Source: Candidatus Moranbacteria bacterium CG23_combo_of_CG06-09_8_20_14_all_35_22
GTDB lineage: Bacteria; Patescibacteriota; Minisyncoccia; Moranbacterales; UBA2206
DNA length: 32,731 nt
Assembly (NCBI GenBank): GCA_002772115.1
Contig: PCRW01000076.1
Span: 1,802 to 34,532, forward strand
Direction: 5' to 3'
The translations under genes were made by a program, and so were the position numbers. Of the stretch, positions 13 through 27,885 are shown in pieces; the stretch's first letter is position 1, and each line of letters opens with the position of its first letter. Below the pieces are notes generated by a model. That model saw nothing but the letters and a program-made list of their open reading frames with translations, was not told the origin of the DNA and did no database searches.

Positions 13-97
13 TGGTGCCGATGGTGGGACTTGAACCCACAAACCTTGCGGCACACGAACCTGAATCGTGCGTGTTTGCCAATTTCACCACATCGGC
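13..97 (-). tRNA. tRNA-Leu(CAG)
   Basis: Reverse complement folds as a cloverleaf: GCCGATG/CATCGGC acceptor stem, CACGA-TTCAGGT-TCGTG anticodon arm, long variable arm, GTTCAA T-loop, encoded CCA. Confidence 0.96.
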
Positions 98-129
98 TTT
101 CGTATTTCGTTAATTTCGTAGTTCGTAAA
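98..129. repeat. Solo arm of the TTCGTA repeat family
   Basis: Ends in TTTCGTAGTTCGTAAA, identical to the terminal repeat at 17872-17887. Confidence 0.85.
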
Positions 130-468
130 TTATCCTAAAATCGCTTTGAGTCTCCTCACTTCTTCCGCCAACACTCCTTCATTTTCATACTCTCCATGAT
201 GGCGCGTGCCTTCTCCATAAGTTTCCTTTTTGGCATCTAAATGAATATTGATTGTCATATTCGCTCCATTTACCTTAACATACATATGAAATCGCGGATA
301 GCCCGAAGCTGAAAATGGACGCACAAAACTCATTTCCCCGCCTCGCGTCGACGAGCGATCGTCTCCGCGAGTCGAGGCGGGGTCGCTTTCTTGTCTTTGA
401 AAAAGATATCCCGCTCGACGAAGCAGATTAGCTGGGCTACTGGAAATGTTTTTAATTTCTAACTGCAT
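130..468 (-). CDS. Hypothetical protein with an in-frame 15-aa palindrome insertion
   Basis: 112-aa ORF; PASTRGDDRSSTRGG is encoded by the repeat at 337-381. Confidence 0.75.
   Translation of the reverse strand: MQLEIKNISSSPANLLRRAGYLFQRQESDPASTRGDDRSSTRGGEMSFVRPFSASGYPRFHMYVKVNGANMTINIHLDAKKETYGEGTRHHGEYENEGVLAEEVRRLKAILG
337..381. repeat. 45-bp GC-rich palindromic element (family A), copy 1
   Basis: CCCGCCTCG...CGAGGCGGG; near-identical copies at 30761-30805 and, inverted, at 21603-21647. Confidence 0.93.
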
Positions 469-4213: not shown

Positions 4214-4739
4214 TTTTTTCCCAAAGCACTCTGCCTTTTTCAATCTCTTGAAAAAGCAAAGGCTTATTTTTATTAATTTTTATCATTTCATTGGGAGTTT
4301 TCACGATTAACTGAATCTTTTCTGAAAATTCTGAATTATTTATTATTTTTCTCACAACATTTAAGCTATTTGTTAGGACAAATATATCAATATCGCTGTC
4401 TTTTTTGTTCATTCCATCAGCAAACGATCCGAATAAAACAATTCTTATACTTTCCAATCTTAATTTTTCCACCAAAGGCTCAAGCGCTAAAATATTCAAA
4501 AGAATTTTCATTTCCCGAATTAAATTGTTTTTAACATCAGCACTGTAAAGAGAGCTTCTGCCAATTTTTCTACAACTTATCAATTTATGTTTAACTAAAA
4601 GATGCAACGCTAAATTAACCGCCGATTTCTTGACACCTGTTTTTTTTGAAATTTCTTTTTCTTGAAATTCTTCTCCGACATTTTCGCATATAAAAGCTAA
4701 TATCTTTTGTTGAGAAGTTGTGAAAAATATCTCTTTCAT
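4203..4739 (-). CDS. HTH plus minimal nucleotidyltransferase (MNT antitoxin)
   Basis: LFGSFADG....SDIDIFV motif, N-terminal HTH, directly upstream of the HEPN gene. Confidence 0.9.
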   Translation of the reverse strand: MKEIFFTTSQQKILAFICENVGEEFQEKEISKKTGVKKSAVNLALHLLVKHKLISCRKIGRSSLYSADVKNNLIREMKILLNILALEPLVEKLRLESIRIVLFGSFADGMNKKDSDIDIFVLTNSLNVVRKIINNSEFSEKIQLIVKTPNEMIKINKNKPLLFQEIEKGRVLWEKNED

Positions 4740-9028: not shown

Positions 9029-9637
9029 TTAAATTTTTTCAACCAAATCAGGATACTTTTCCAAAGCTTCTTGTTTCAGAAATTTAGCCTGCTTATAATA
9101 TTCATATCTTTTACCATATATTCCTTTCATCAATTCTTCTTTTGAATTTTGGTATTCTTCATATTTTCTTGCAGTGTTTTGTTGCTTAATTTCATCTAAA
9201 AAATATTGGATGTCCCCTTCAAAAGAAAAAGGCTCTGGATATTTATTAAGAAAATTTTCTGCATCTCTCGCATTAAGATTTTCATAATCATTTGCATTAT
9301 TTAAAACAAGATAGGCTACCATTTTTTCCATTTGTTTGTTTCCTAAAATTTTAGCAAATAATCCCGCTGGCTCATCCGGATTTACAGGCGCCTTGATACA
9401 GAGTAATAATTCTCTAAAATCATCTTCCATAATTTCTCCTTTAGCAATTTTTTCAATAACCTCATTTCTGATTTCATCTCTCACGCGAAATATTTTTTCT
9501 TCTAAAATTTCTGGTTTTCTTTCTTTAAGGTAAGCAATTATTTTATTTTGTTGTCTAATATTAGGTATTTCGCTTTTTTTATCTTCTTCGCTTTTGTGAA
9601 TAATTGTTATCCCCTCAAAACCTGGGTTATTAAGCAT
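9029..9637 (-). CDS. Hypothetical protein
   Basis: 202-aa ORF with typical K/E-rich composition; no motif recognised. Confidence 0.7.
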   Translation of the reverse strand: MLNNPGFEGITIIHKSEEDKKSEIPNIRQQNKIIAYLKERKPEILEEKIFRVRDEIRNEVIEKIAKGEIMEDDFRELLLCIKAPVNPDEPAGLFAKILGNKQMEKMVAYLVLNNANDYENLNARDAENFLNKYPEPFSFEGDIQYFLDEIKQQNTARKYEEYQNSKEELMKGIYGKRYEYYKQAKFLKQEALEKYPDLVEKI

Positions 9638-9886: not shown

Positions 9887-11887
9887 ATGAGTAGTTTGAT
9901 TTCTAGATTTTGGAACAATTTCAAAACTCAACCAGATATGTGGTTCTTTTTTGGGTTTTTATTAACTTTTACGCTAAGTATTAGGAAAGTAATGTTATAC
10001 TTTCCAATCCAAGGAACTTTCAATGAATATTCCGGAGTGTTTATCTACCTTTCAGATGTTTTTCTAATTTTAACTCTAGTTTTCTGGTTTATATCTATAT
10101 TATGCAATGATTTTATTATTTTGTCAAGGTACAGGCTGTGGATAAGTAGTGCTTTCCACAAGTTACCCCCACACCAAAATTATAAATATAATCTCTATAA
10201 AATTAAGATTTATCTAAAAAATAGCCTCAAAATGAGAGCAAAGCGTATTTTTAATTTTTGGTGGAGGGGCATGTACATATTTTTACCTCTATTTTTAGTT
10301 TTTCTTTCTTTTTTATCAATTCTATGGTCGCAAAATCTGTCAATAGCCCTTTTCCGATCATTTAAGCTTTTGGAGTTTTATTTATTATATCTTTATATTA
10401 TTTTCAGATTTGTTTCAAAATTGTTCCACGCCCGCCTGCCAAAAAATTGTTCCGCGCCTATCTGCGACAATAATGTTCCACGCCCGCCTGCCGGCGAGGC
10501 AGGTGGAACATCCATCAATGAGAAGCAAGGATCAACCTCTAATTGTTCCACATGGAACAATTTTGGGCGGGTGGAACAATTTTGGGCGGGTGGAACAATT
10601 TGGTTATTTTTTAACATCATTATAATTTTAGGCTTATTTCAAGCCATAATCGGCATCATTCAATTTTTCCTACAAAAATCAATTGACCTATTTTGGCTTC
10701 GAGAAAGCCTAATTTCACCAGAAATCCTTGGGGTGGCTAAAGTAATCTTAAATGGAGAAAAATACATCCGCGCCTATGGCCTTATGACACATCCTAATGT
10801 TTTGGGTGGATTCTTACTATTTTCTATTGTTATCACATTATTATATAAAAAAATGTTCCATATGAAACATCAACTACCCCCCTCGCCTTTACAAGGAGAT
10901 GGGCAAGGGGTGAGGTTAAGCGATGTTCCACGTGGAACAATATCAGAAAAAAAGATATCTTCAATATCCAATTGTTCCACATGGAACAATTGGATATTTA
11001 GGCTTATTTTAGCCATTCAAATTTTAGCGCTAATCTTAACATTCTCAAAATCAGCCATAATTGGGCTCATTATCGCTCTTATATGCCTATCTGTGCCTGC
11101 CCGCCAAAAAAATGTTCCATGTGGAACACTATCAAAAGAAGAGTTTTATCCAAATTCAAATTGTTCCACGTGGAACAATTCTAAAATACACCTCACCCAA
11201 TCCCTCTCCTTATTAAGGAGAAAGTGGCTCAAGATGTTCCATGTGGAACATTTGAAATTAATAATCCTCTCGGTCTTAATTATTTTAGTATCCATATTTT
11301 TCATAATTAAACCCAATTTGAATTCTTTATTTTTTAATTCCCTAAATGAACGCCTATTTTATCTAAATGTTCCATATGGAACATTTGAGAGTGATCTAGT
11401 ATTGGGAATTGGCGCCGGACAATCAGTCCTAATGATGCAAAAATTTTACTCACAAACTTTAGAATTCTGGCAATATCAGCCTATTCATAATGTTTTTCTA
11501 CTAATATTTAGCGAGTTAGGCTTAATCGGTCTAGGGTTATTTATTTGGTGGTTGTGGAAATTGTTCCACGTGGAACAATTTGAAAATTCACCTCATCCTA
11601 ACCTTCTCCTTATTAAGGAGAAGGAACTTGCCCCCCTCTCCTTTATAAGGAGAGGGGCAGGGGGTGAGGTTAAAATTGTTCCACATGGAACAATAGAAAA
11701 TAACGACTACATATTACACAATAATAATATATATTTGTCAAGTATAATATTCTCTCGATATTTCCAAAGAATTCTTTTAGGTCTTATTTTTATCATGCTT
11801 TTTGACCATTATATCTGGGATATCCAACAGGGGAGCCTCCTATTCTGGCTAACCGCCGGCTTTGTTGCTGGAATAAGCAGGAAATAA
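9887..11887 (+). CDS. O-antigen ligase/Wzy_C-like membrane protein with many repeat-derived inserts
   Basis: RAYGLMTHPNVLGG, TFSKSA, GIGAG, PIHNVFLLIFSELGLIG and FDHY motifs; many transmembrane segments. Confidence 0.82.
   Translation: MSSLISRFWNNFKTQPDMWFFFGFLLTFTLSIRKVMLYFPIQGTFNEYSGVFIYLSDVFLILTLVFWFISILCNDFIILSRYRLWISSAFHKLPPHQNYKYNLYKIKIYLKNSLKMRAKRIFNFWWRGMYIFLPLFLVFLSFLSILWSQNLSIALFRSFKLLEFYLLYLYIIFRFVSKLFHARLPKNCSAPICDNNVPRPPAGEAGGTSINEKQGSTSNCSTWNNFGRVEQFWAGGTIWLFFNIIIILGLFQAIIGIIQFFLQKSIDLFWLRESLISPEILGVAKVILNGEKYIRAYGLMTHPNVLGGFLLFSIVITLLYKKMFHMKHQLPPSPLQGDGQGVRLSDVPRGTISEKKISSISNCSTWNNWIFRLILAIQILALILTFSKSAIIGLIIALICLSVPARQKNVPCGTLSKEEFYPNSNCSTWNNSKIHLTQSLSLLRRKWLKMFHVEHLKLIILSVLIILVSIFFIIKPNLNSLFFNSLNERLFYLNVPYGTFESDLVLGIGAGQSVLMMQKFYSQTLEFWQYQPIHNVFLLIFSELGLIGLGLFIWWLWKLFHVEQFENSPHPNLLLIKEKELAPLSFIRRGAGGEVKIVPHGTIENNDYILHNNNIYLSSIIFSRYFQRILLGLIFIMLFDHYIWDIQQGSLLFWLTAGFVAGISRK
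10137..10145 (-). promoter_or_regulatory. DnaA-box consensus (TTATCCACA) inside the CDS
   Basis: TGTGGATAA on the + strand, with degenerate boxes just downstream (~10152-10172). Confidence 0.4.
10422..11692. promoter_or_regulatory. Cluster of parS centromere-like sites
   Basis: TGTTCCAYRTGRAACA at 10544, 10854, 10924, 10973, 11113, 11162, 11235, 11368, 11562 and 11677; one split site at 10474-10510; several half sites. Confidence 0.88.
10877..11669. repeat. CCTCACCC...CCCTCTCC-GGAGAGGG hairpin repeats (family C)
   Basis: Copies at 10877-10915, 11191-11224 and an inverted doublet at 11591-11669; more in pcrA at 30370-30403 and 32286-32321. Confidence 0.87.
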
Positions 11888-14683: not shown

Positions 14684-17134
14684 TTATAAAACCGTACTCG
14701 CACTAACTTTGTCTCCCGCTTGCGGACGCATAACGCGCACACCTTGAGTGGCTCGACCGAGAACGGAAACGCTGGAAAGAGGAATGCGAATGATTTGACC
14801 TTTTTCGGAAGTTAAAATTAAATCGGTATCAAGCGCGTCCATATTGATAATCGTTGCGCCAATTATTTTTCCGGTTTTGGAAGTGACAGAGGCAGTTTTT
14901 ATTCCAGAACCACCACGCTTTTGGACTTTATAATATTTCAAATCTGATCTTTTTCCAAAGCCGTTTTCCGAAATTGTAAGAAGCTGATTACCTTTTTGAT
15001 TTTTGAAAACCACATCCATTCCAACCACAGCGTCGTCTTTTTTGAGTTTTATTCCACGCACTCCGGCCGCGTTTCGTCCCATTGAACGAACATCTGATTC
15101 TCGAAATCTAATCGCTTGACCATTTCTTGTAGTAATAACTATTTCATCTGTTCCCGTAGTCGCGTCCACCCAACCAAGAGTGTCACCTTTTTCCAATTTT
15201 ATCGCAATGAGTCCTGAACGACGAACATTTTCAAATTCATCTAAAGTAGTTTTCTTGACTGTGCCCATTGCTGTCGTCATCAAAAGATATTTATAAGCAT
15301 CATCTTTGTTGAAAGCAATGATAGCTGTGACAGATTCTTCTTGAGAAAGAGAAAGAAAATTCACAATCGATTGACCTTTGGCAATGCGAGTGGATTCCGG
15401 AATTTCATAGGCTTTAGTTTGAAAAACTTTTCCAGAATTTGTGAAAAATAGCAGATTATCATGCGTCATCACTCCGAGCATTTTTTGAATTTCATCCCCT
15501 TCGCGCGTTGTTGCCCCAATCACTCCTTTGCCTCCGCGCTTTTGAACTTTGTAGGCACTCGGATTCATTCTTTTGACATAACCATCTTTGGAAAGAGTGA
15601 TAATAGCTTCTTCATTGGGCACTAAATCTTCTTGCCGAAATTCTCCCACACCAGATTTTATCACTTTCGTTCTTCTTTCATCACCATATTTTTCCTTAAC
15701 ACGAGCTAATTCATCTTTGATAATAGAAAATATTTTTTTCTCACTTTTTAGAATAGCTTCAAGCTGGGCAATCAGTTTTATTTTTTCTACTAATTCGTCT
15801 TCAATTTTCTTTCGTTCTAGTCCAGCCAAGGTTTGCAATTTCATTTCCAAAATAGCCGTAGCTTGCTTTTCTGACAGTTTGAATTTTTTCATTAAATTCT
15901 TATGCGCTTCTTCTTTAGTAGGAGATTTTTTGATTGTTTCAATCACTGCGTCAATGTGATCTAGCGCAATTTTCAATCCTTCCAAAATATGCGCGCGATC
16001 CCGAGCTTTTTCTAAATCAAATTTAGTTCTTCTAATTATCACAATTTTTCGGTGCGCTACATATTCCTCTAAAATTGTTTTTAAATTCAAAACTTTCGGC
16101 TCGATACCATTGACCAGCGCTAGCATATTGACACCAAAATTTTTCTGAAGATCAGTCAGAGAATAAAGTTTATTCAAAACTTTTTGCGGATAGGCATCCT
16201 TTTTCAAATCTACCACAATTCGCACGCCTTCCTTGTCCGATTCATCGCGTAAATCTTTTATACCAACAATTTTTCCATCGCGAACTAAATTGGCCATAGT
16301 TTCAATCAGTGTGGCCTTGTTGGTAGCATAAGTTATTTCGCTAATCACTATTTGAAAAGTTCCGGTTTTGCTTTCTACGATATCTGCTTTACCCCGTGTT
16401 AAAATTTTTCCTCGACCAGTTTTATACGCTTCGACAATATCCTTTTTATTATAAATTATTCCACCAGTTGGAAAATCCGGTCCCTTGATAAATTCTGAAA
16501 GTTCTTCAATAGAAATTTCCGGATTATCAATCAAACTATTTATACCATCTACCAATTCAGAAAGATTATGCGGAGGAATGTTGGTCGCCATTCCCACCGC
16601 AATTCCCATTGAACCATTTAATAATAATTGCGGAAGTCTGGCTGGAAGCACTGCCGGTTCTTTGTGCTGACCGTCAAAATTAGGCACAAAATCCACTGTG
16701 TTTTTTTCAATGTCAATCAGCATTTCTTCTGCCATTTGGGAAAGTTTAGCTTCCGTATAACGATAAGCCGCTACACCGTCGCCGTCCATTGAACCGAAGT
16801 TTCCTTGACCTTTGACCATCGGATAGCGCAAAGAAAAATCCTGTGCCATTCTTACCATTGAATCATAAACGGCCACATCGCCATGTGGATGATATTTTCC
16901 CAAAACTTCTCCCACCACCGTAGCTGATTTTCGAAATTTCGCGCTAGCACGAAGACCCGACTGCCACATTGAATAAAGAATTCGTCGATGCACTGGTTTC
17001 AATCCATCGCGAACATCAGGCAAAGCGCGCGAAACAATCACGCTCATAGCATAATCCAAATAGGATTGTTGAATTTCCAAAGTTATTTCTCTAGCTTGAA
17101 TATTTTTATCTATATTATTTATTTCTTCTGGCAT
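14684..17134 (-). CDS. gyrA: DNA gyrase subunit A
   Basis: [24 protein letters not shown], catalytic RYTE and GyrA box QKRGGKG; ATG at 17134 preferred over GTG at 17152. Confidence 0.98.
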
Positions 17135-17165
17135 ATTATTTTTATAAGGCACTAAAAAATTAAAC

Positions 17166-17423
17166 TTATTTTTCTAATAAACTTTTCATTTGCTTGGTTG
17201 CGTCTTGAATAGATTCCTTTTGAGTTGTTAAATCTTCTATCACTTGGCTATTTAAAATATTTTCTTTTTCCGAATCATCCGTATTTTCAAATTGAGCAGA
17301 AAAAGAAATCATCCAAATTATTAAAATAAAAATCATTCCAAAAGCAGTGAGCCCCCACACCCAACGCAAGCGGATATGTTCCGGCTGGCGACGAATCTGT
17401 TCTATTTTATCAAATATACTCAT
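17166..17423 (-). CDS. Small single-pass membrane protein
   Basis: 85 aa, one hydrophobic helix, in operon position upstream of gyrA. Confidence 0.75.
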
Positions 17424-17425
17424 TC

Positions 17426-17887
17426 TTTACGAACTACGAAATAAGCGAAATACGAAAATTAATCTAAATTTACTACTCTTTTGTATCTCACACCTTCGCT
17501 AGTAAAAGTAATTATTATACCTAATCTTAGATTTGTAGCTTTGAGATATTTATACAATTGATTAATATCCTTACTAGAAATAAAATTTCTTTGTTTTATT
17601 TCTAAAATAATTTTATTAAATATTAGAAAATCAAAAATATAAATTCCTAAATCTTCTTCTTTATATTTAACTTTATACCTTAATTGTTCTTTAAATTCAA
17701 AACCGTTATCCGTGAACTCTTTAGCTAGAGCTTTTTGAAAAAAATTTTCTTTATGCCCAAATCCTAATTTTTTAAATACTCTAAAAACCGCTCCCATTAT
17801 CCGATAACATTCCTCGGCATATATTAAGTTCTTTTTTGTTTTCATTTTTTATTTTTCGTAATTTCGTATTTTTTCGTAGTTCGTAAA
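17426..17887. mobile_element. Putative element: GxxExxY gene between TTCGTA-rich inverted arms
   Basis: Perfect 16-bp terminal inverted repeats TTTACGAACTACGAAA tightly bracket the ORF. Confidence 0.65.
17459..17845 (-). CDS. GxxExxY family protein (PD-(D/E)XK-like)
   Basis: YRIMGAVFRV...LGFGHKENFFQKAL, DF...IILEIK, Q...YLK...G. Confidence 0.9.
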   Translation of the reverse strand: MKTKKNLIYAEECYRIMGAVFRVFKKLGFGHKENFFQKALAKEFTDNGFEFKEQLRYKVKYKEEDLGIYIFDFLIFNKIILEIKQRNFISSKDINQLYKYLKATNLRLGIIITFTSEGVRYKRVVNLD

Positions 17888-17896
17888 TTTTAAATT

Positions 17897-18559
17897 TTAT
17901 TCGATGTCCATAATCACAACTGCCATTTCTTTTTCTTCTAAATCTTTCTTTTTTATATTAATTTTAGAAACTTTTTCTTTGGGGCAACTGCCAATTTCAC
18001 TGCAAAATTTCTTTTCGTCATCAACCTCAACTGTTGAACCTTTTATCTTATAATGCATTGGAATAATCATTTTTGGTTCAATTTTTTTGATTATATCCAC
18101 TGCCTTTTCTCCATCAATCGTATAATTTCTTCCGCCAATCGGTACCATTAAAATATCAATGCCATTTATTTTTTCCAACTGTTTTTCTGATAGATCGGTT
18201 CCCAGATCGCCCAAATGGCAAACTCGCAAATCTTCCGATTCTAAAACAAAAATAGTATTTGTTCCGCGTTCCGTGCCTTCTTTATTATCATGAAAAGAAG
18301 TAATTCCAATGACATTGACGCCCTTGGCGCTATATTCACCAGGAATGTCAATCACATACGGTTCACCTTTGAGCGCAGAAACATTATTATGATCAGAATG
18401 ATTGTGACTCACTAAAACTAAATCCGCTTGCCCTTGCGGAGGACGCAAACCGACTGACTTGTCAAACGGATCAAAAAAAACCACCACATCTTCCCGCCCG
18501 CGTCCCGCCGGCTTAGTAGTGATCTTAAAGCAAGAATGACCGTAATATTGAATAAGCAT
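17897..18559 (-). CDS. MBL-fold metallo-hydrolase
   Basis: GHSCF, DPF, SHNHSDH, HLGDLG and IIPMHY. Confidence 0.92.
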   Translation of the reverse strand: MLIQYYGHSCFKITTKPAGRGREDVVVFFDPFDKSVGLRPPQGQADLVLVSHNHSDHNNVSALKGEPYVIDIPGEYSAKGVNVIGITSFHDNKEGTERGTNTIFVLESEDLRVCHLGDLGTDLSEKQLEKINGIDILMVPIGGRNYTIDGEKAVDIIKKIEPKMIIPMHYKIKGSTVEVDDEKKFCSEIGSCPKEKVSKINIKKKDLEEKEMAVVIMDIE

Positions 18560-18571
18560 ATAATTGATGAG

Positions 18572-18667
18572 AGTTCATAAAGTTCGTAAAGTTTATAAAG
18601 TTTTTAAAACTACATAAGCTTTTTTCTAAACTTTAAAACCTTAAGAACTTTATAAACTTTTTTAACT
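18572..18667. repeat. Inverted pair of 9-mer repeat arms (AAAGTTTAT)
   Basis: AGTTCATAAAGTTCGTAAAGTTTATAAAG faces ...AACTTTATAAACTTT. Confidence 0.65.
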
Positions 18668-18707
18668 ATTATAGTCTAGCACTAAAAAAATCTCTTGTCT
18701 ATATCTC

Positions 18708-21208: not shown

Positions 21209-21252
21209 AACCAGCGCCCTCACGAAAGGAGGAATGAGGCGCTGGTTTTTTT
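21209..21252 (+). terminator. Intrinsic terminator
   Basis: AACCAGCGCC...GGCGCTGGTT plus a T run. Confidence 0.75.
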
Positions 21253-21366
21253 ATCCCCCACCACTTTTTATTTAAAAAATAATTTTTGTGAAAAAACAGC
21301 TCCAAAATAATTGATTACTTAGTTTGATTTTTAAAATAGCAGAAATAAAAAGTGGCGGGGGATAAA
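21250..21366. mobile_element. MITE-like element with 24-bp inverted repeats
   Basis: TTTATCCCCCACCACTTTTTATTT and its inverse with one mismatch; the same family encloses tRNA-Val at 27769-27885. Confidence 0.75.
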
Positions 21367-21524: not shown

Positions 21525-21658
21525 TTTACGAACTACTAAATAAATACGAAGGTACGAAGGTACGAAAAGGGAGCCTAATTGTTTCGTATTTCGTTCATTT
21601 CGCCAGCCTCGACTCGCAAAGATAATTACTCGTCGACGCGAGGCGGGTAGTTCGTAAA
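21525..21658. mobile_element. Gene-less TTCGTA inverted-arm element with a nested family A palindrome (21603-21647)
   Basis: Left end TTTACGAACTACTAAA; the right end reads TTTCG|TAGTTCGTAAA once the 45-bp insert is removed. Confidence 0.75.
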
Positions 21659-24584: not shown

Positions 24585-24624
24585 TTTCGTATTTTCGTAA
24601 TTTCGTTTTATTCGTAGTTCGTAA
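24585..24624. repeat. Solo TTCGTA arm directly before the ftsH start
   Basis: ...TTCGTAGTTCGTAA ends 2 nt before the ATG. Confidence 0.8.
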
Positions 24625-27768: not shown

Positions 27769-27885
27769 TTTATCCCCCACCACTTTTAGAGTGGGTCTGT
27801 GCAGACTCGAACTGCAGACCTCGTCGATGTCAACGACGCACTCTAACCAACTGAGCTACAGACCCTAAGAGTGGTGGGGGACAAG
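27769..27885. mobile_element. Inverted-repeat element enclosing tRNA-Val
   Basis: TTTATCCCCCACCACTTTTAG...CTAAGAGTGGTGGGGGACAAG. Confidence 0.75.
27792..27865 (-). tRNA. tRNA-Val(GAC)
   Basis: GGGTCTG/CAGACCC acceptor, CGTCG-TTGACAT-CGACG anticodon arm, TTCGAGT T-loop. Confidence 0.95.

What the first reader, a model, noticed from the sequence alone, without database searches (positions are those of the whole stretch)
17426..17887. GxxExxY gene bounded by perfect 16-bp terminal inverted repeats, with an empty derivative and solo arms elsewhere
Seen: arms built of TTCGTA units face each other around the ORF, inside the gyrA operon. The same ends with no gene between them occur at 21525-21658, and solo arms occur at 98-129 and 24585-24624. 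Established: GxxExxY proteins have a nuclease-like fold and no assigned function. Inference: this matches an autonomous element plus MITE relationship, which makes GxxExxY a candidate mobiliser of a transposase-free element class.
Basis: partly seen in the sequence, partly recalled or inferred. Interest (0 to 1): 0.85.

Follow-up and report, generated by a model that had tools for sequence, protein, structure and literature searches.

The report
Nuclease gene inside a repeated hairpin
A small nuclease-like gene sits in the loop of one copy of a hairpin repeat that litters this tiny genome, and the same gene-in-a-hairpin layout recurs across bacterial phyla, resembling the long-unexplained intervening sequences of ribosomal RNA genes.

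Summary
The 128-aa GxxExxY ORF (17459-17845, minus strand; PF13366, TIGR04256) is bracketed by a perfect 16-bp inverted repeat.

The arms belong to a genome-wide hairpin family of TTCGTA units, with 50 exact terminal 11-mers in 906 kb. Among 35 neighbouring convergent arm pairs, only this one encloses a gene.

All five free-standing GxxExxY genes of the genome (the sixth lies inside lepA) have inverted arms of short units. So do 41 of 56 in 31 related genomes, and a clade that is 70-83% identical across phyla. Arm sequence co-varies with protein clade.

Arms and ORF arrive together. The cassette is present or absent between MBL and gyrA among congeners, and it sits in frame inside lepA in three species.

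Against "GxxExxY is the transposase":
- The unrelated four-helix-bundle rRNA-IVS protein family has the same architecture (24 of 27 loci).
- No target duplication was seen.
- No two cassette copies in the genome are alike.
- Congeners carry arms without a cognate gene.

Best reading: an IVS-like, hairpin-bounded selfish cassette, gained and lost through its arms, with the nuclease possibly helping. No mechanism is shown.

The parts
17846..17887 (-). 5' arm of the cassette in the gene's sense. On the minus strand it reads TTTACGAACTACGAAAAAATACGAAATTACGAAAAATAAAAA, then ATG. The outer 16 nt are the perfect terminal repeat.
17459..17845 (-). GxxExxY ORF, 128 aa, minimal PD-(D/E)XK fold. D72, E82 and K84 are present. 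The motif reads GxxExxF in this copy.
17426..17458 (-). 3' arm. On the minus strand it reads TTTTCGTATTTCGCTTATTTCGTAGTTCGTAAA and ends 2 nt before the ATG of the next ORF.
21525..21658 (.). ORF-less hairpin of the same family: TACGAA arm, short loop, TTCGTA arm.
21604..21646 (.). 43-bp GC-rich palindrome nested in the right arm of the ORF-less hairpin, between ..ATTTCG and TAGTTCGTAAA. It is one of 40 copies of a separate small element.
98..129 (+). Solo arm TTTCGTATTTCGTTAATTTCGTAGTTCGTAAA, directly beside tRNA-Leu (13-97, minus strand).
24585..24624 (+). Solo arm ending 2 nt before the ATG of the ftsH-like ORF (24627).
17897..18559 (-). Upstream host gene, MBL-fold (PF13483). It is the left boundary of the insertion site, and the gene order is conserved in 20 of 20 loci of relatives.
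17166..17423 (-). Downstream host ORF (85 aa), conserved in relatives and followed by gyrA (14684-17152). It is the right boundary of the insertion site.

Best explanation
The finding is one copy of a hairpin-bounded small-ORF cassette. The cassette is about 0.46 kb. It holds one GxxExxY (PD-(D/E)XK) gene between two 33-42-nt inverted arms built from 6-8-nt units.

The layout matches that of the classical intervening sequences (IVS) of 23S rRNA, but here the cassette lies in an mRNA operon spacer. The cassette, arms included, is the unit that is gained and lost. The roughly 34 ORF-less TTCGTA hairpins of this genome are the same element without its loop gene.

Proposed working, all inferred:
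1. The cassette is transcribed with the host operon.
2. Its arms pair in the RNA and set the ORF apart from the host message.
3. At the DNA level, copies exchange loop content by recombination through their shared arms. A gene-bearing loop can therefore be copied into an ORF-less hairpin of the same family, or be erased by one.
4. The conserved nuclease probably recognises or cuts its own arms and stimulates this exchange, much as a homing endonuclease does.

Shown here: the architecture, its generality, its presence/absence among relatives, co-variation of arms with protein clade, and conversion between hairpin copies. Not shown: any activity of the protein, any RNA processing, or the insertion chemistry.
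For: Architecture and specificity in this genome:
- The perfect 16-bp terminal repeat is there. The terminal 11-mer occurs 50 times exactly in 905,852 bp.
- There are 83 arrays of at least 3 TTCGTA units, against 0 in each of 5 shuffles.
- Of 35 neighbouring convergent arm pairs, 28 have loops under 60 nt and 5 have loops of 60-150 nt. One has a loop of 150-3000 nt and is the GxxExxY copy. One is more than 3 kb apart.
- All five free-standing GxxExxY genes have inverted unit arrays, with a different unit per copy. The C24 copy sits in a second hairpin family (TACAAA units) that also has ORF-less copies.

Generality:
- In 31 genomes of the order, 41 of 56 free-standing GxxExxY loci share at least 3 inverted 7-mers between their 100-nt flanks: 23 of 30 and 18 of 26. 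Control windows 400 nt further out score 4 of 30.
- Among 80 loci from other phyla that are 70-83% identical to the C75-clade protein, a terminal motif occurs at 3.10 per kb within 200 nt of the ORF and at 0.21 per kb beyond.
- Arms co-vary with protein identity.

Unit of insertion:
- MBL, the small ORF and gyrA keep their order in 20 of 20 loci. The gene lies between MBL and the small ORF only in G000, G008 and G002. Basal G005 and the outgroups have 5-79-nt spacers without arms.
- In lepA, arms plus ORF lie in frame in 3 of 12 aligned species and are absent in 9.

Exchange through arms:
- In G008 the hairpin at site e57 carries the interior of copy e53.
- At 5 of 11 shared sites the hairpins are 98-99% identical while the flanks are 87-93%.

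RNA pairing:
- The arms pair in both the MFE and the centroid fold of the sense RNA, z = -4.86, with 0 of 100 shuffles folding as well.

Protein under constraint:
- D72 and K84 are invariant and E33 nearly so in 28 sequences.
- Between G000 and G008 there are 7 synonymous and 1 non-synonymous codon differences.
- The AF2 model (pLDDT 92.4) matches Cas4, lambda-exonuclease-like, Hjc and tRNA-splicing nucleases.

Link to IVS:
- The 23S rRNA gene of this genome carries an ORF-less insert made of GCGGAT/ATCAGCG units. This is the unit family of the lepA cassette arms.
- Passages read in PMC4990558 describe IVS as a terminal-inverted-repeat stem, excised by RNase III, that encloses an ORF of unknown role.
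Against: - No enzymology, RNA ends or expression data exist. No RNA run holds the locus.
- Arm mismatches show no clear excess of sense-strand G.U types: 27 against 23 (p = 0.67) and 24 against 12 (p = 0.065). Most mismatches are transversions. Selection for RNA pairing is therefore not demonstrated.
- PF05635 cassettes have the same arms without a nuclease: 24 of 27 loci against 4 of 23 controls. A nuclease is not needed for the architecture.
- G003, G004 and G006 keep an arm end at the empty MBL-gyrA site.
- G005 has 41 arm ends and only one, non-cognate GxxExxY.
- The C75-type cassette has no ORF-less copies in this genome.
- At about 8 of 25 orthologous spacers compared between G000 and G008, a hairpin of one unit family is replaced by one of another family. 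Arm-homology exchange alone does not explain this.
- The cross-phylum loci often show direct as well as inverted sharing between flanks, 53% and 48%, so the layout is not always a simple ORF-in-loop.
Confidence: 0.5

Rival explanations
1. GxxExxY is itself a transposase-like nuclease that excises and inserts both its own cassette and the ORF-less hairpins (an autonomous element plus its MITEs). This would be a new nuclease-driven class of element.
For: - GxxExxY is the only protein inside the arms, and its catalytic residues are conserved.
- Arms travel with the protein clade even across phyla.
- The two genomes that hold the gene with exactly these ends have the most arm ends: G000 76 and G008 98. 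The seven other congeners have 3-41.
- The layout parallels a RAYT gene flanked by its own REPs, and that layout is also seen in this genome.
Against: - No target duplication was seen at the gyrA, lepA or hairpin sites.
- No two GxxExxY cassettes in the genome are close copies.
- Many hairpins sit at the same sites in G000 and G008, which are about 90% identical in HSPs of at least 1 kb. They are therefore old rather than hopping.
- PF05635 cassettes share the architecture.
- Arm populations persist without a cognate gene in G004, G005 and G006.
- The genome comparison involves kin and few genomes, so it is not an independent test.
Confidence: 0.2
2. The hairpins are independent of GxxExxY. 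Either they are REPIN-like repeats moved in trans by one of the genome's RAYT-like Y1 transposases, or they are host spacer structures (RNA processing, stability or termination signals). GxxExxY and PF05635 genes would then be passengers with other roles that are merely tolerated in hairpin loops.
For: - There are seven PF01797 matches in the genome.
- The arm ends contain CTAC/GTAG. That tetranucleotide marks many REPs according to the abstract of PMC3733652 (seen in the listing).
- The hairpins fill spacers. Of 50 termini, 22 lie within 15 nt of a start codon and 11 more within 15 nt of a convergent stop.
- Orthologous spacers keep a hairpin even when its family changes.
- Some hairpins are more conserved than the flanking genes.
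- Arms occur without the gene at the same site in relatives.
Against: - None of the seven RAYT-like genes is flanked by TTCGTA arms. At least four have their own unrelated flanking palindromes.
- In lepA the arms arrive together with the ORF at a site that has no hairpin in 9 of 12 relatives.
- Arm sequence follows the protein clade rather than the host, even across phyla.
- The only genes found in loops of the TTCGTA and TACAAA families are GxxExxY genes.
Confidence: 0.2
3. There is no mobility at all. The arms arise in place by slippage and expansion of short units in AT-rich spacers, and their inverted symmetry around small genes is a by-product.
For: - Arms are arrays of short units whose number varies between orthologous copies (e55 and e61).
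- Heptamer-type arrays next to start codons are known in other bacteria (PMC4679880, passages read).
Against: - The perfect 16-bp terminal repeat is shared with 50 sites genome-wide.
- Identical termini accompany related proteins in different phyla.
- The insertion is in frame in a conserved coding sequence.
- One copy's interior has been replaced by another copy's.
Confidence: 0.05

Closest known systems
Intervening sequences (IVS) of 23S rRNA genes that carry an S23p / 23S_rRNA_IVP (PF05635) ORF
   Same: - Terminal inverted repeats form a long stem that encloses a small sense-strand ORF of unknown role.
- Distribution is sporadic, implying horizontal spread.
- ORF-less short forms exist (PMC4990558 and PMC11270868, passages read).
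- This genome has an ORF-less IVS-like insert in its 23S gene, built from the unit family of one of its GxxExxY cassettes.
- PF05635 genes outside rRNA have the same unit-array arms.
   Different: - The element studied lies in a protein-gene spacer, and a sister copy lies inside lepA. Neither is in rRNA.
- The ORF is a PD-(D/E)XK nuclease-fold protein, not a four-helix bundle.
- The arms are arrays of short units.
- RNase III excision is not shown here.
- None of the 140 loci compared by BLAST (GxxExxY and PF05635) matched the 23S gene.
REPIN-RAYT systems
   Same: A single-copy gene is flanked by inverted repeats whose family is dispersed through intergenic DNA as short palindromic doublets, with each gene type having its own repeat type. 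Bona fide RAYT-like genes with their own flanking hairpins occur in this same genome.
   Different: - The gene is not an HUH/Y1 transposase.
- The arms are 30-45-nt AT-rich unit arrays, not short GC-rich REP stem-loops.
- Some cassette types have no dispersed population here.
Homing endonuclease genes, free-standing or in introns and inteins, including PD-(D/E)XK types
   Same: A small nuclease-fold gene shows filled and empty alleles at the same site. It is tolerated inside essential or conserved genes and spreads across phyla.
   Different: No intron or intein surrounds it. It is bounded by inverted repeats. Cleavage of an empty site is not shown, and only fold-level similarity exists.
MITEs with an autonomous partner, and Rickettsia palindromic elements (recalled, not read here)
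   Same: Short palindromic non-coding copies share their ends with a longer gene-bearing copy. Palindromic elements are inserted in frame in protein genes (lepA).
   Different: No target-site duplication, no known transposase family, and no recent identical copies of the gene-bearing form.

Membership tests
GxxExxY protein family (PF13366 PDDEXK_3 / TIGR04256) | Score above the curated cut-offs of both models | tested here: met
   PF13366 scores 101.4 bits (cut-off 22). TIGR04256 scores 103.8 bits (cut-off 35)..
GxxExxY protein family (PF13366 PDDEXK_3 / TIGR04256) | PD-(D/E)XK core residues and the GxxExxY motif | tested here: met
   D72 and K84 are invariant and E33 nearly invariant in 28 relatives. 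This copy has E82, and it reads G30-x-x-E33-x-x-F36, so Tyr is replaced by Phe..
GxxExxY protein family (PF13366 PDDEXK_3 / TIGR04256) | Nuclease-like alpha/beta fold | tested here: met
   The AF2 model has pLDDT 92.4. The best Foldseek PDB hits are Cas4 SSO0001, alkaline and lambda exonucleases, Hjc and tRNA-splicing endonuclease, at TM 0.38-0.58, so only at fold level..
Autonomous transposon plus MITE pair | Terminal inverted repeats shared by a gene-bearing copy and short gene-less copies | tested here: met
Autonomous transposon plus MITE pair | Target-site duplication at the insertion borders | tested here: not met
   No direct repeat borders the element at the MBL-gyrA spacer, in lepA, or at compact hairpins..
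Autonomous transposon plus MITE pair | Encodes a transposase of a known family | tested here: not met
   The only ORF is PF13366. There is no strong PADLOC or PHROG match..
Autonomous transposon plus MITE pair | Presence/absence polymorphism at orthologous sites | tested here: met
   At the MBL-gyrA spacer, 3 of 20 loci are filled. In lepA, 3 of 12 are filled..
Autonomous transposon plus MITE pair | Several near-identical gene-bearing copies as a sign of recent transposition | tested here: not met
   The six GxxExxY genes of the genome are about 30-65% identical to this one..
REPIN-RAYT system | The flanked gene is an HUH Y1 (IS200-like) transposase | tested here: not met
   The gene is PF13366. 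The seven PF01797 genes of the genome lie elsewhere and have other flanks..
REPIN-RAYT system | The repeat family flanking the gene is dispersed as inverted doublets in intergenic DNA | tested here: met
   Thirty-three compact convergent pairs. Of 50 termini, 22 lie next to start codons..
23S rRNA intervening sequence (IVS) | Located in the 23S rRNA gene (helix 9, 25 or 45) | tested here: not met
   This element lies between protein genes. A related ORF-less insert does lie inside the LSU rRNA match. Its helix assignment is recalled, not tested.
23S rRNA intervening sequence (IVS) | Terminal inverted repeats predicted to pair in the sense transcript and enclose the ORF | tested here: met
   The arms pair in both the MFE and centroid folds, z = -4.86..
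23S rRNA intervening sequence (IVS) | Excision of the stem-loop by RNase III | not testable with these tools
   No RNA run holds the locus.
Homing endonuclease gene | The nuclease cleaves the empty allele and is copied in by repair | not testable with these tools
   Only filled and empty alleles and conversion between hairpin copies were seen.

The most novel reading that the evidence does not exclude
GxxExxY proteins and the four-helix-bundle 'rRNA IVS proteins' mark one widespread class of hairpin-bounded cassettes. These cassettes colonise any transcribed DNA: rRNA, operon spacers, and even coding sequences in frame. They occur from CPR bacteria to Bacteroidota, Chloroflexi and Cyanobacteria.

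In this reading GxxExxY is a nuclease that reads its own unit-array arms and drives copy-in through them. That would make it the engine of a new, transposase-free kind of mobile element. It would also explain where rRNA intervening sequences come from.
Probability: 0.3. Interest if true: 0.85.

Novelty: new variant of a known kind. Interest (0 to 1): 0.7.

Why it matters
GxxExxY (PF13366) and the IVS protein family (PF05635) are abundant. In the ~1-Mb genomes searched here they reach 8 and 11 copies. Neither has an assigned function.

rRNA intervening sequences have been known since about 1990, yet their origin and way of spreading remain open (PMC4990558, passages read).

Both gene families sit in the same unit-array hairpin. 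The hairpin travels with the gene across phyla. It also lands in spacers, in rRNA and in frame in lepA. Together these points turn the old IVS question into a concrete one: does the loop protein act on its own arms? That can be tested with a cultivable host.

The result also matters for annotation. Many 'intergenic repeats' and odd insertions in conserved proteins of CPR genomes may be these cassettes or their remains.

In my searches of the held library, GxxExxY, PDDEXK_3 and the four accession numbers returned 3, 1 and 3 papers. The titles and abstract openings listed for these papers do not concern flanking repeats. I read passages in three of them, and those passages do not mention flanking repeats. 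Subscription journals and supplements were not searchable.

Tried and rejected
- Chance: rejected.
- Defence or phage gene: PADLOC gave only weak partial hits (E 3e-4 and 4e-3) and PHROGs one hit at E 0.0095.
- Solved relatives by sequence: none below E 0.35.
- RAYT as the flanked gene: the seven PF01797 genes have other flanks.
- GxxExxY or PF05635 loci lying in 23S rRNA: BLAST of the genome's 23S gene against 140 fetched loci found nothing.
- RNA-level selection on the arms: the G.U asymmetry test was inconclusive.
- The first flank score (local alignment) was confounded. The control set contained the GxxExxY genes themselves, genes between two full hairpins, and operator palindromes. I replaced it with shared 7-mers against displaced windows.
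- Expression: no RNA holder is listed for the locus.
- Excision alleles in population data: four groundwater DNA runs, held as contigs, were laid on 16900-18700. The joints 17457>17847 and 17457>17851 have sides of 21-25 nt and carry loop letters of other hairpin copies. They are repeat cross-matches, not empty alleles.
- Polarity of gain or loss at the gyrA site: a 477-column MBL+GyrA tree favours two gains (the G000/G008 ancestor, and G002) over one gain with four or more losses. Inner supports are only 39-80, and arm ends at the empty sites leave loss possible.
- G000 against G008: only 20 pieces (about 330 kb of about 1 Mb) of G008 were compared. 25 of 75 G000 element regions could be placed.
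- In the PF05635 flank test I dropped 3 of 30 fetched loci before counting: L190 (internal stop), L209 (short or broken copy) and L211 (216-aa frame).
- In the GxxExxY flank tests the lepA-fused or contig-end copies (L061, L062, L063, L077) were left out.
- One search printed 17 of the 20 MBL loci.
- Supplements of papers were not opened. Table S4 of PMC11270868 (ORF families in CPR rRNA insertions) could bear on whether GxxExxY occurs in rRNA insertions.
- The helix-45 placement of the 23S insert, the Rickettsia palindromic elements and the RAYT/REPIN biology are recalled knowledge, apart from the abstracts listed.
Full report
**1. What is in the window**

On the minus strand the order is: an MBL-fold gene (18559-17897, PF13483), a 128-aa ORF (17845-17459), an 85-aa ORF (17423-17166) and gyrA (17152-14684).

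The 128-aa ORF is a clear member of PF13366/TIGR04256, the GxxExxY family. It is bracketed by TTTACGAACTACGAAA and its exact reverse complement (17427-17442 and 17872-17887). Weaker complementarity continues inward through further TACGAA/TTCGTA units.

The terminal 11-mer occurs six times in the window against 0.25 expected. The sites are the two ends of the gene, the two ends of a 134-bp ORF-less hairpin (21525-21658), and two solo arms. One solo arm (98-129) lies beside tRNA-Leu. The other (24585-24624) lies just before the ftsH-like start. One addition: the ORF-less copy holds a nested 43-bp GC-rich palindrome.

**2. The arms are a genome-wide hairpin family**

The window lies in a 906-kb, 34.6% G+C assembly of 82 contigs.

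- The 11-mer occurs 50 times exactly.
- Arrays of at least 3 TTCGTA units occur 83 times, against 0 in shuffles.
- The usual form is a 75-130-bp palindrome that fills an intergenic spacer. Of 50 termini, 22 lie within 15 nt of a start codon and 11 more within 15 nt of a convergent stop.
- Of 35 neighbouring convergent arm pairs, 28 have loops under 60 nt. Five have loops of 60-150 nt; those inspected carry the GC palindrome. Exactly one has a gene-sized loop, and that is the GxxExxY copy. One further pair is more than 3 kb apart.

**3. Every GxxExxY gene has such arms, each its own**

The genome has six PF13366 genes. The five free-standing ones are all bracketed by inverted arrays of short units, with different units per copy:

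| Copy | Units in the arms |
|---|---|
| This one (C43) | TACGAA |
| C33 | TACTAA/TACGAA |
| C24 | TACAAA |
| C75 | CTTGATT |
| C26 | ATGCGAATCTACAAAT |

The TACAAA family also has ORF-less hairpins elsewhere in the genome.

In 31 genomes of the same order there are 60 PF13366 matches in 20 genomes. Of the 56 free-standing copies, 41 share at least 3 inverted 7-mers between their 100-nt flanks (23 of 30 and 18 of 26). Windows 400 nt further out score 4 of 30.

Arm similarity rises with protein identity among pairs at different genomic sites. Spearman is 0.447 over 386 of 406 pairs, and 0 of 2000 permutations reach it. Because gene and arms are linked, this shows they travel together. It does not show that one acts on the other.

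**4. The pattern crosses phyla**

A scan of one genome per species with the C75-clade alignment returned 80 loci at 70-83% identity. They come from Bacteroidota, Chloroflexi, Cyanobacteria, Ignavibacteria, Calditrichota, Leptospiraceae, a deltaproteobacterium and one archaeal MAG.

Their flanks carry GATT/AATC-type unit arrays with a shared terminus of the form GTCTGAAC..GATT. This motif occurs at 3.10 per kb within 200 nt of the ORF and at 0.21 per kb farther away. The copy in this CPR genome ends in TTGTCAGAACCTTGATT.

The layout is less uniform in this set. Inverted and direct sharing between flanks are both raised, at 48% and 53% of 79 loci, against 7% and 21% in controls.

A non-coding end that stays recognisable while the protein moves between phyla argues for sequence-specific use of the ends.

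**5. The arms arrive with the gene**

MBL, the small ORF and gyrA keep their order in all 20 loci examined. GxxExxY lies between MBL and the small ORF only in G000, its close relative G008, and G002. In G002 the protein is 68.5% identical and the arms differ.

Basal G005 and the other genera have spacers of 5-79 nt without arms. G003, G004 and G006 keep only an arm end (TTCGTAGTTCGTAAATG). G001 keeps what equals the outer end of G002's left arm.

A small MBL+GyrA tree makes two gains more parsimonious than one gain with several losses. Support is modest, and the arm ends could also be scars of loss.

The clearest case is lepA. In G000, G008 and G003 a GxxExxY domain with both arms lies in frame between the P-loop and DTPGH segments, giving a 771-aa protein. 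Nine other aligned relatives have an uninterrupted sequence there with no repeat. So arms plus ORF are what is inserted. The same lepA also carries an ORF-less, in-frame hairpin about 21 aa long.

**6. Signs of exchange between copies, and of age**

G000 and G008 are about 90% identical in long HSPs. In the roughly 330 kb of G008 compared, 25 hairpin sites could be matched.

- Many hairpins are at the same site in both genomes.
- At 5 of 11 shared sites the hairpins are 98-99% identical, while the flanks are 87-93%.
- One G008 hairpin (e57) has the interior of another copy (e53). This indicates conversion through the arms.
- At about eight sites the spacer holds a hairpin of a different unit family in the other genome. 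One such family (TTTTCAA/TTGAAAA units) is the one that flanks a PF05635 gene in G000.
- The nested GC palindrome is polymorphic and sits precisely at TAC^GAA of an arm, without duplication.

**7. What speaks against GxxExxY as the mobiliser**

- PF05635 genes have the same architecture. This is the four-helix-bundle '23S rRNA IVS protein' family, related to DGR Avd according to passages in PMC10053308. 24 of 27 loci score, against 4 of 23 controls.
- No target duplication was found.
- The six GxxExxY copies are diverged, at about 30-65% identity.
- Arm ends (15-mer, at most 1 mismatch) number 76 in G000 and 98 in G008, which hold the cognate gene. They also number 41, 15 and 8 in G005, G006 and G004, where no GxxExxY with these ends was found. 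Outside the genus they are essentially none.
- The genome has seven RAYT-like Y1 genes. At least four have their own flanking palindromes and none has TTCGTA arms. A role in trans is not excluded.

**8. The protein and the RNA**

The AF2 model is confident (pLDDT 92.4). It is a minimal PD-(D/E)XK fold. The nearest solved folds are Cas4, lambda-type exonucleases, Hjc resolvases and tRNA-splicing endonucleases, at TM 0.38-0.58.

D72 and K84 are invariant. Between G000 and G008 the ORF differs at 7 synonymous codons and 1 non-synonymous codon.

The sense RNA is predicted to pair its two arms around the ORF, z = -4.86. However, mismatches between arms show no clear bias toward sense-strand G.U pairs.

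No RNA data exist for the locus. The DNA contigs laid on it gave only repeat cross-matches.

**9. Comparison with what is known**

The nearest known thing is the rRNA intervening sequence. It has a terminal-inverted-repeat stem, cut out by RNase III, that often encloses a PF05635 ORF. It is sporadically distributed and of unknown origin (PMC4990558). 23S_rRNA_IVP ORFs and short ORF-less insertions are reported in CPR rRNA genes (PMC11270868). I read passages only in both papers.

This genome's own 23S gene carries an ORF-less insert built from GCGGAT/ATCAGCG units, the unit family of the lepA cassette arms.

The relation to REPIN-RAYT is one of layout only. The relation to homing endonucleases is one of fold and of filled/empty alleles only.

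I file the protein as a GxxExxY family member. I do not file the element under any known mobile-element family.

**10. Verdict**

The reading 'autonomous element plus MITEs' is right about the unit and its derivatives. It is unproven, and in part contradicted, about who moves them.

My best account is an IVS-like, hairpin-bounded selfish cassette that is gained and lost through its arms, possibly helped by its nuclease (confidence 0.5). The strict transposase reading and the passenger reading each get about 0.2.

I score it as a new variant of a known kind, interest 0.7.

Noticed in passing
G000:C67:6686-9001 (minus strand; outside the window); loci L026-L028: lepA encodes a 771-aa protein with a whole GxxExxY domain plus both repeat arms inserted in frame, between the ITIK..VRM and LNLIDTPGH segments. 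G008 (98% identical) and G003 (insert only about 50% alike, different units) have it too. Nine other aligned relatives do not. The same gene has a second, ORF-less in-frame hairpin of about 21 aa, shared with G007 and G004.
   Followed up: partly
G000:C60 about 9129-9260 (L216 about 2630-2760); L216:4701-4934: The 23S rRNA gene carries an ORF-less insert made of GCGGAT and ATCAGCG unit arrays. This is the unit family of the lepA cassette arms. The LSU match spans 3216 nt for 2030 model positions, so further inserts exist. A group I intron follows.
   Followed up: partly
window 338-380 and 21604-21646; 40 copies genome-wide: A separate 38-43-nt GC-rich palindrome (CCGCCTCG...CGAGGCGG) sits very often at TAC^GAA of hairpin arms without duplication. 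It is present or absent between G000 and G008 at the same arm. Two copies lie in tRNA-like fragments that ARAGORN does not call (C66:271-313, C39:3839-3881).
   Followed up: partly
G000:C33:9161-9517, C66:11336-11563; loci L186-L215: Genes of the four-helix-bundle '23S rRNA IVS protein' family (PF05635), up to 11 per ~1-Mb genome, are bracketed by the same kind of inverted short-unit arrays (24 of 27 loci).
   Followed up: yes
G000:C10:2550-3230, C38:607-1275, C73 (minus strand), C72:3873-4586 and three more: Seven RAYT-like Y1 transposase (PF01797) genes. At least four are flanked by their own short palindromes, the classical REP-RAYT layout. None has TTCGTA arms.
   Followed up: partly
G000:C68 about 4395-4697 and downstream: A weak Avd-like (PF05635, E 0.0014) ORF is followed directly by a reverse-transcriptase-like ORF. 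This is probably a diversity-generating retroelement.
   Followed up: no
window 18572-18667: Another unit-array hairpin (ATAAAGTT / AACTTTAT units) lies just upstream of the MBL gene. The host operon is therefore flanked by hairpins of two different families.
   Followed up: no
window 10527-11694: A cluster of about eight copies of a perfect 22-26-nt palindrome (AATTGTTCCACGTGGAACAATT), interleaved with CCCTCTCCTTATTAAGGAGA-type palindromes.
   Followed up: no
window 21250-21366 and 27770-27884: Inverted pairs of TTATCCCCCACCAC..-type 23-24-nt arms, 69 nt apart. The second pair brackets tRNA-Val (27791-27865).
   Followed up: no
L115 (Prolixibacteraceae MAG), 300-800 nt upstream of its GxxExxY gene; also L108, L130: Tandem runs of the GTCTGAAC..GATT terminal motif at about 82-nt (L115) or 93-nt (L130) period. 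These are arrays of ORF-less units next to the gene in Bacteroidota.
   Followed up: no
G001:C29:2944-4482 (L046): The lepA match in G001 contains five in-frame stops (3 TGA, 1 TAG, 1 TAA). It may be a broken copy or an assembly problem.
   Followed up: no
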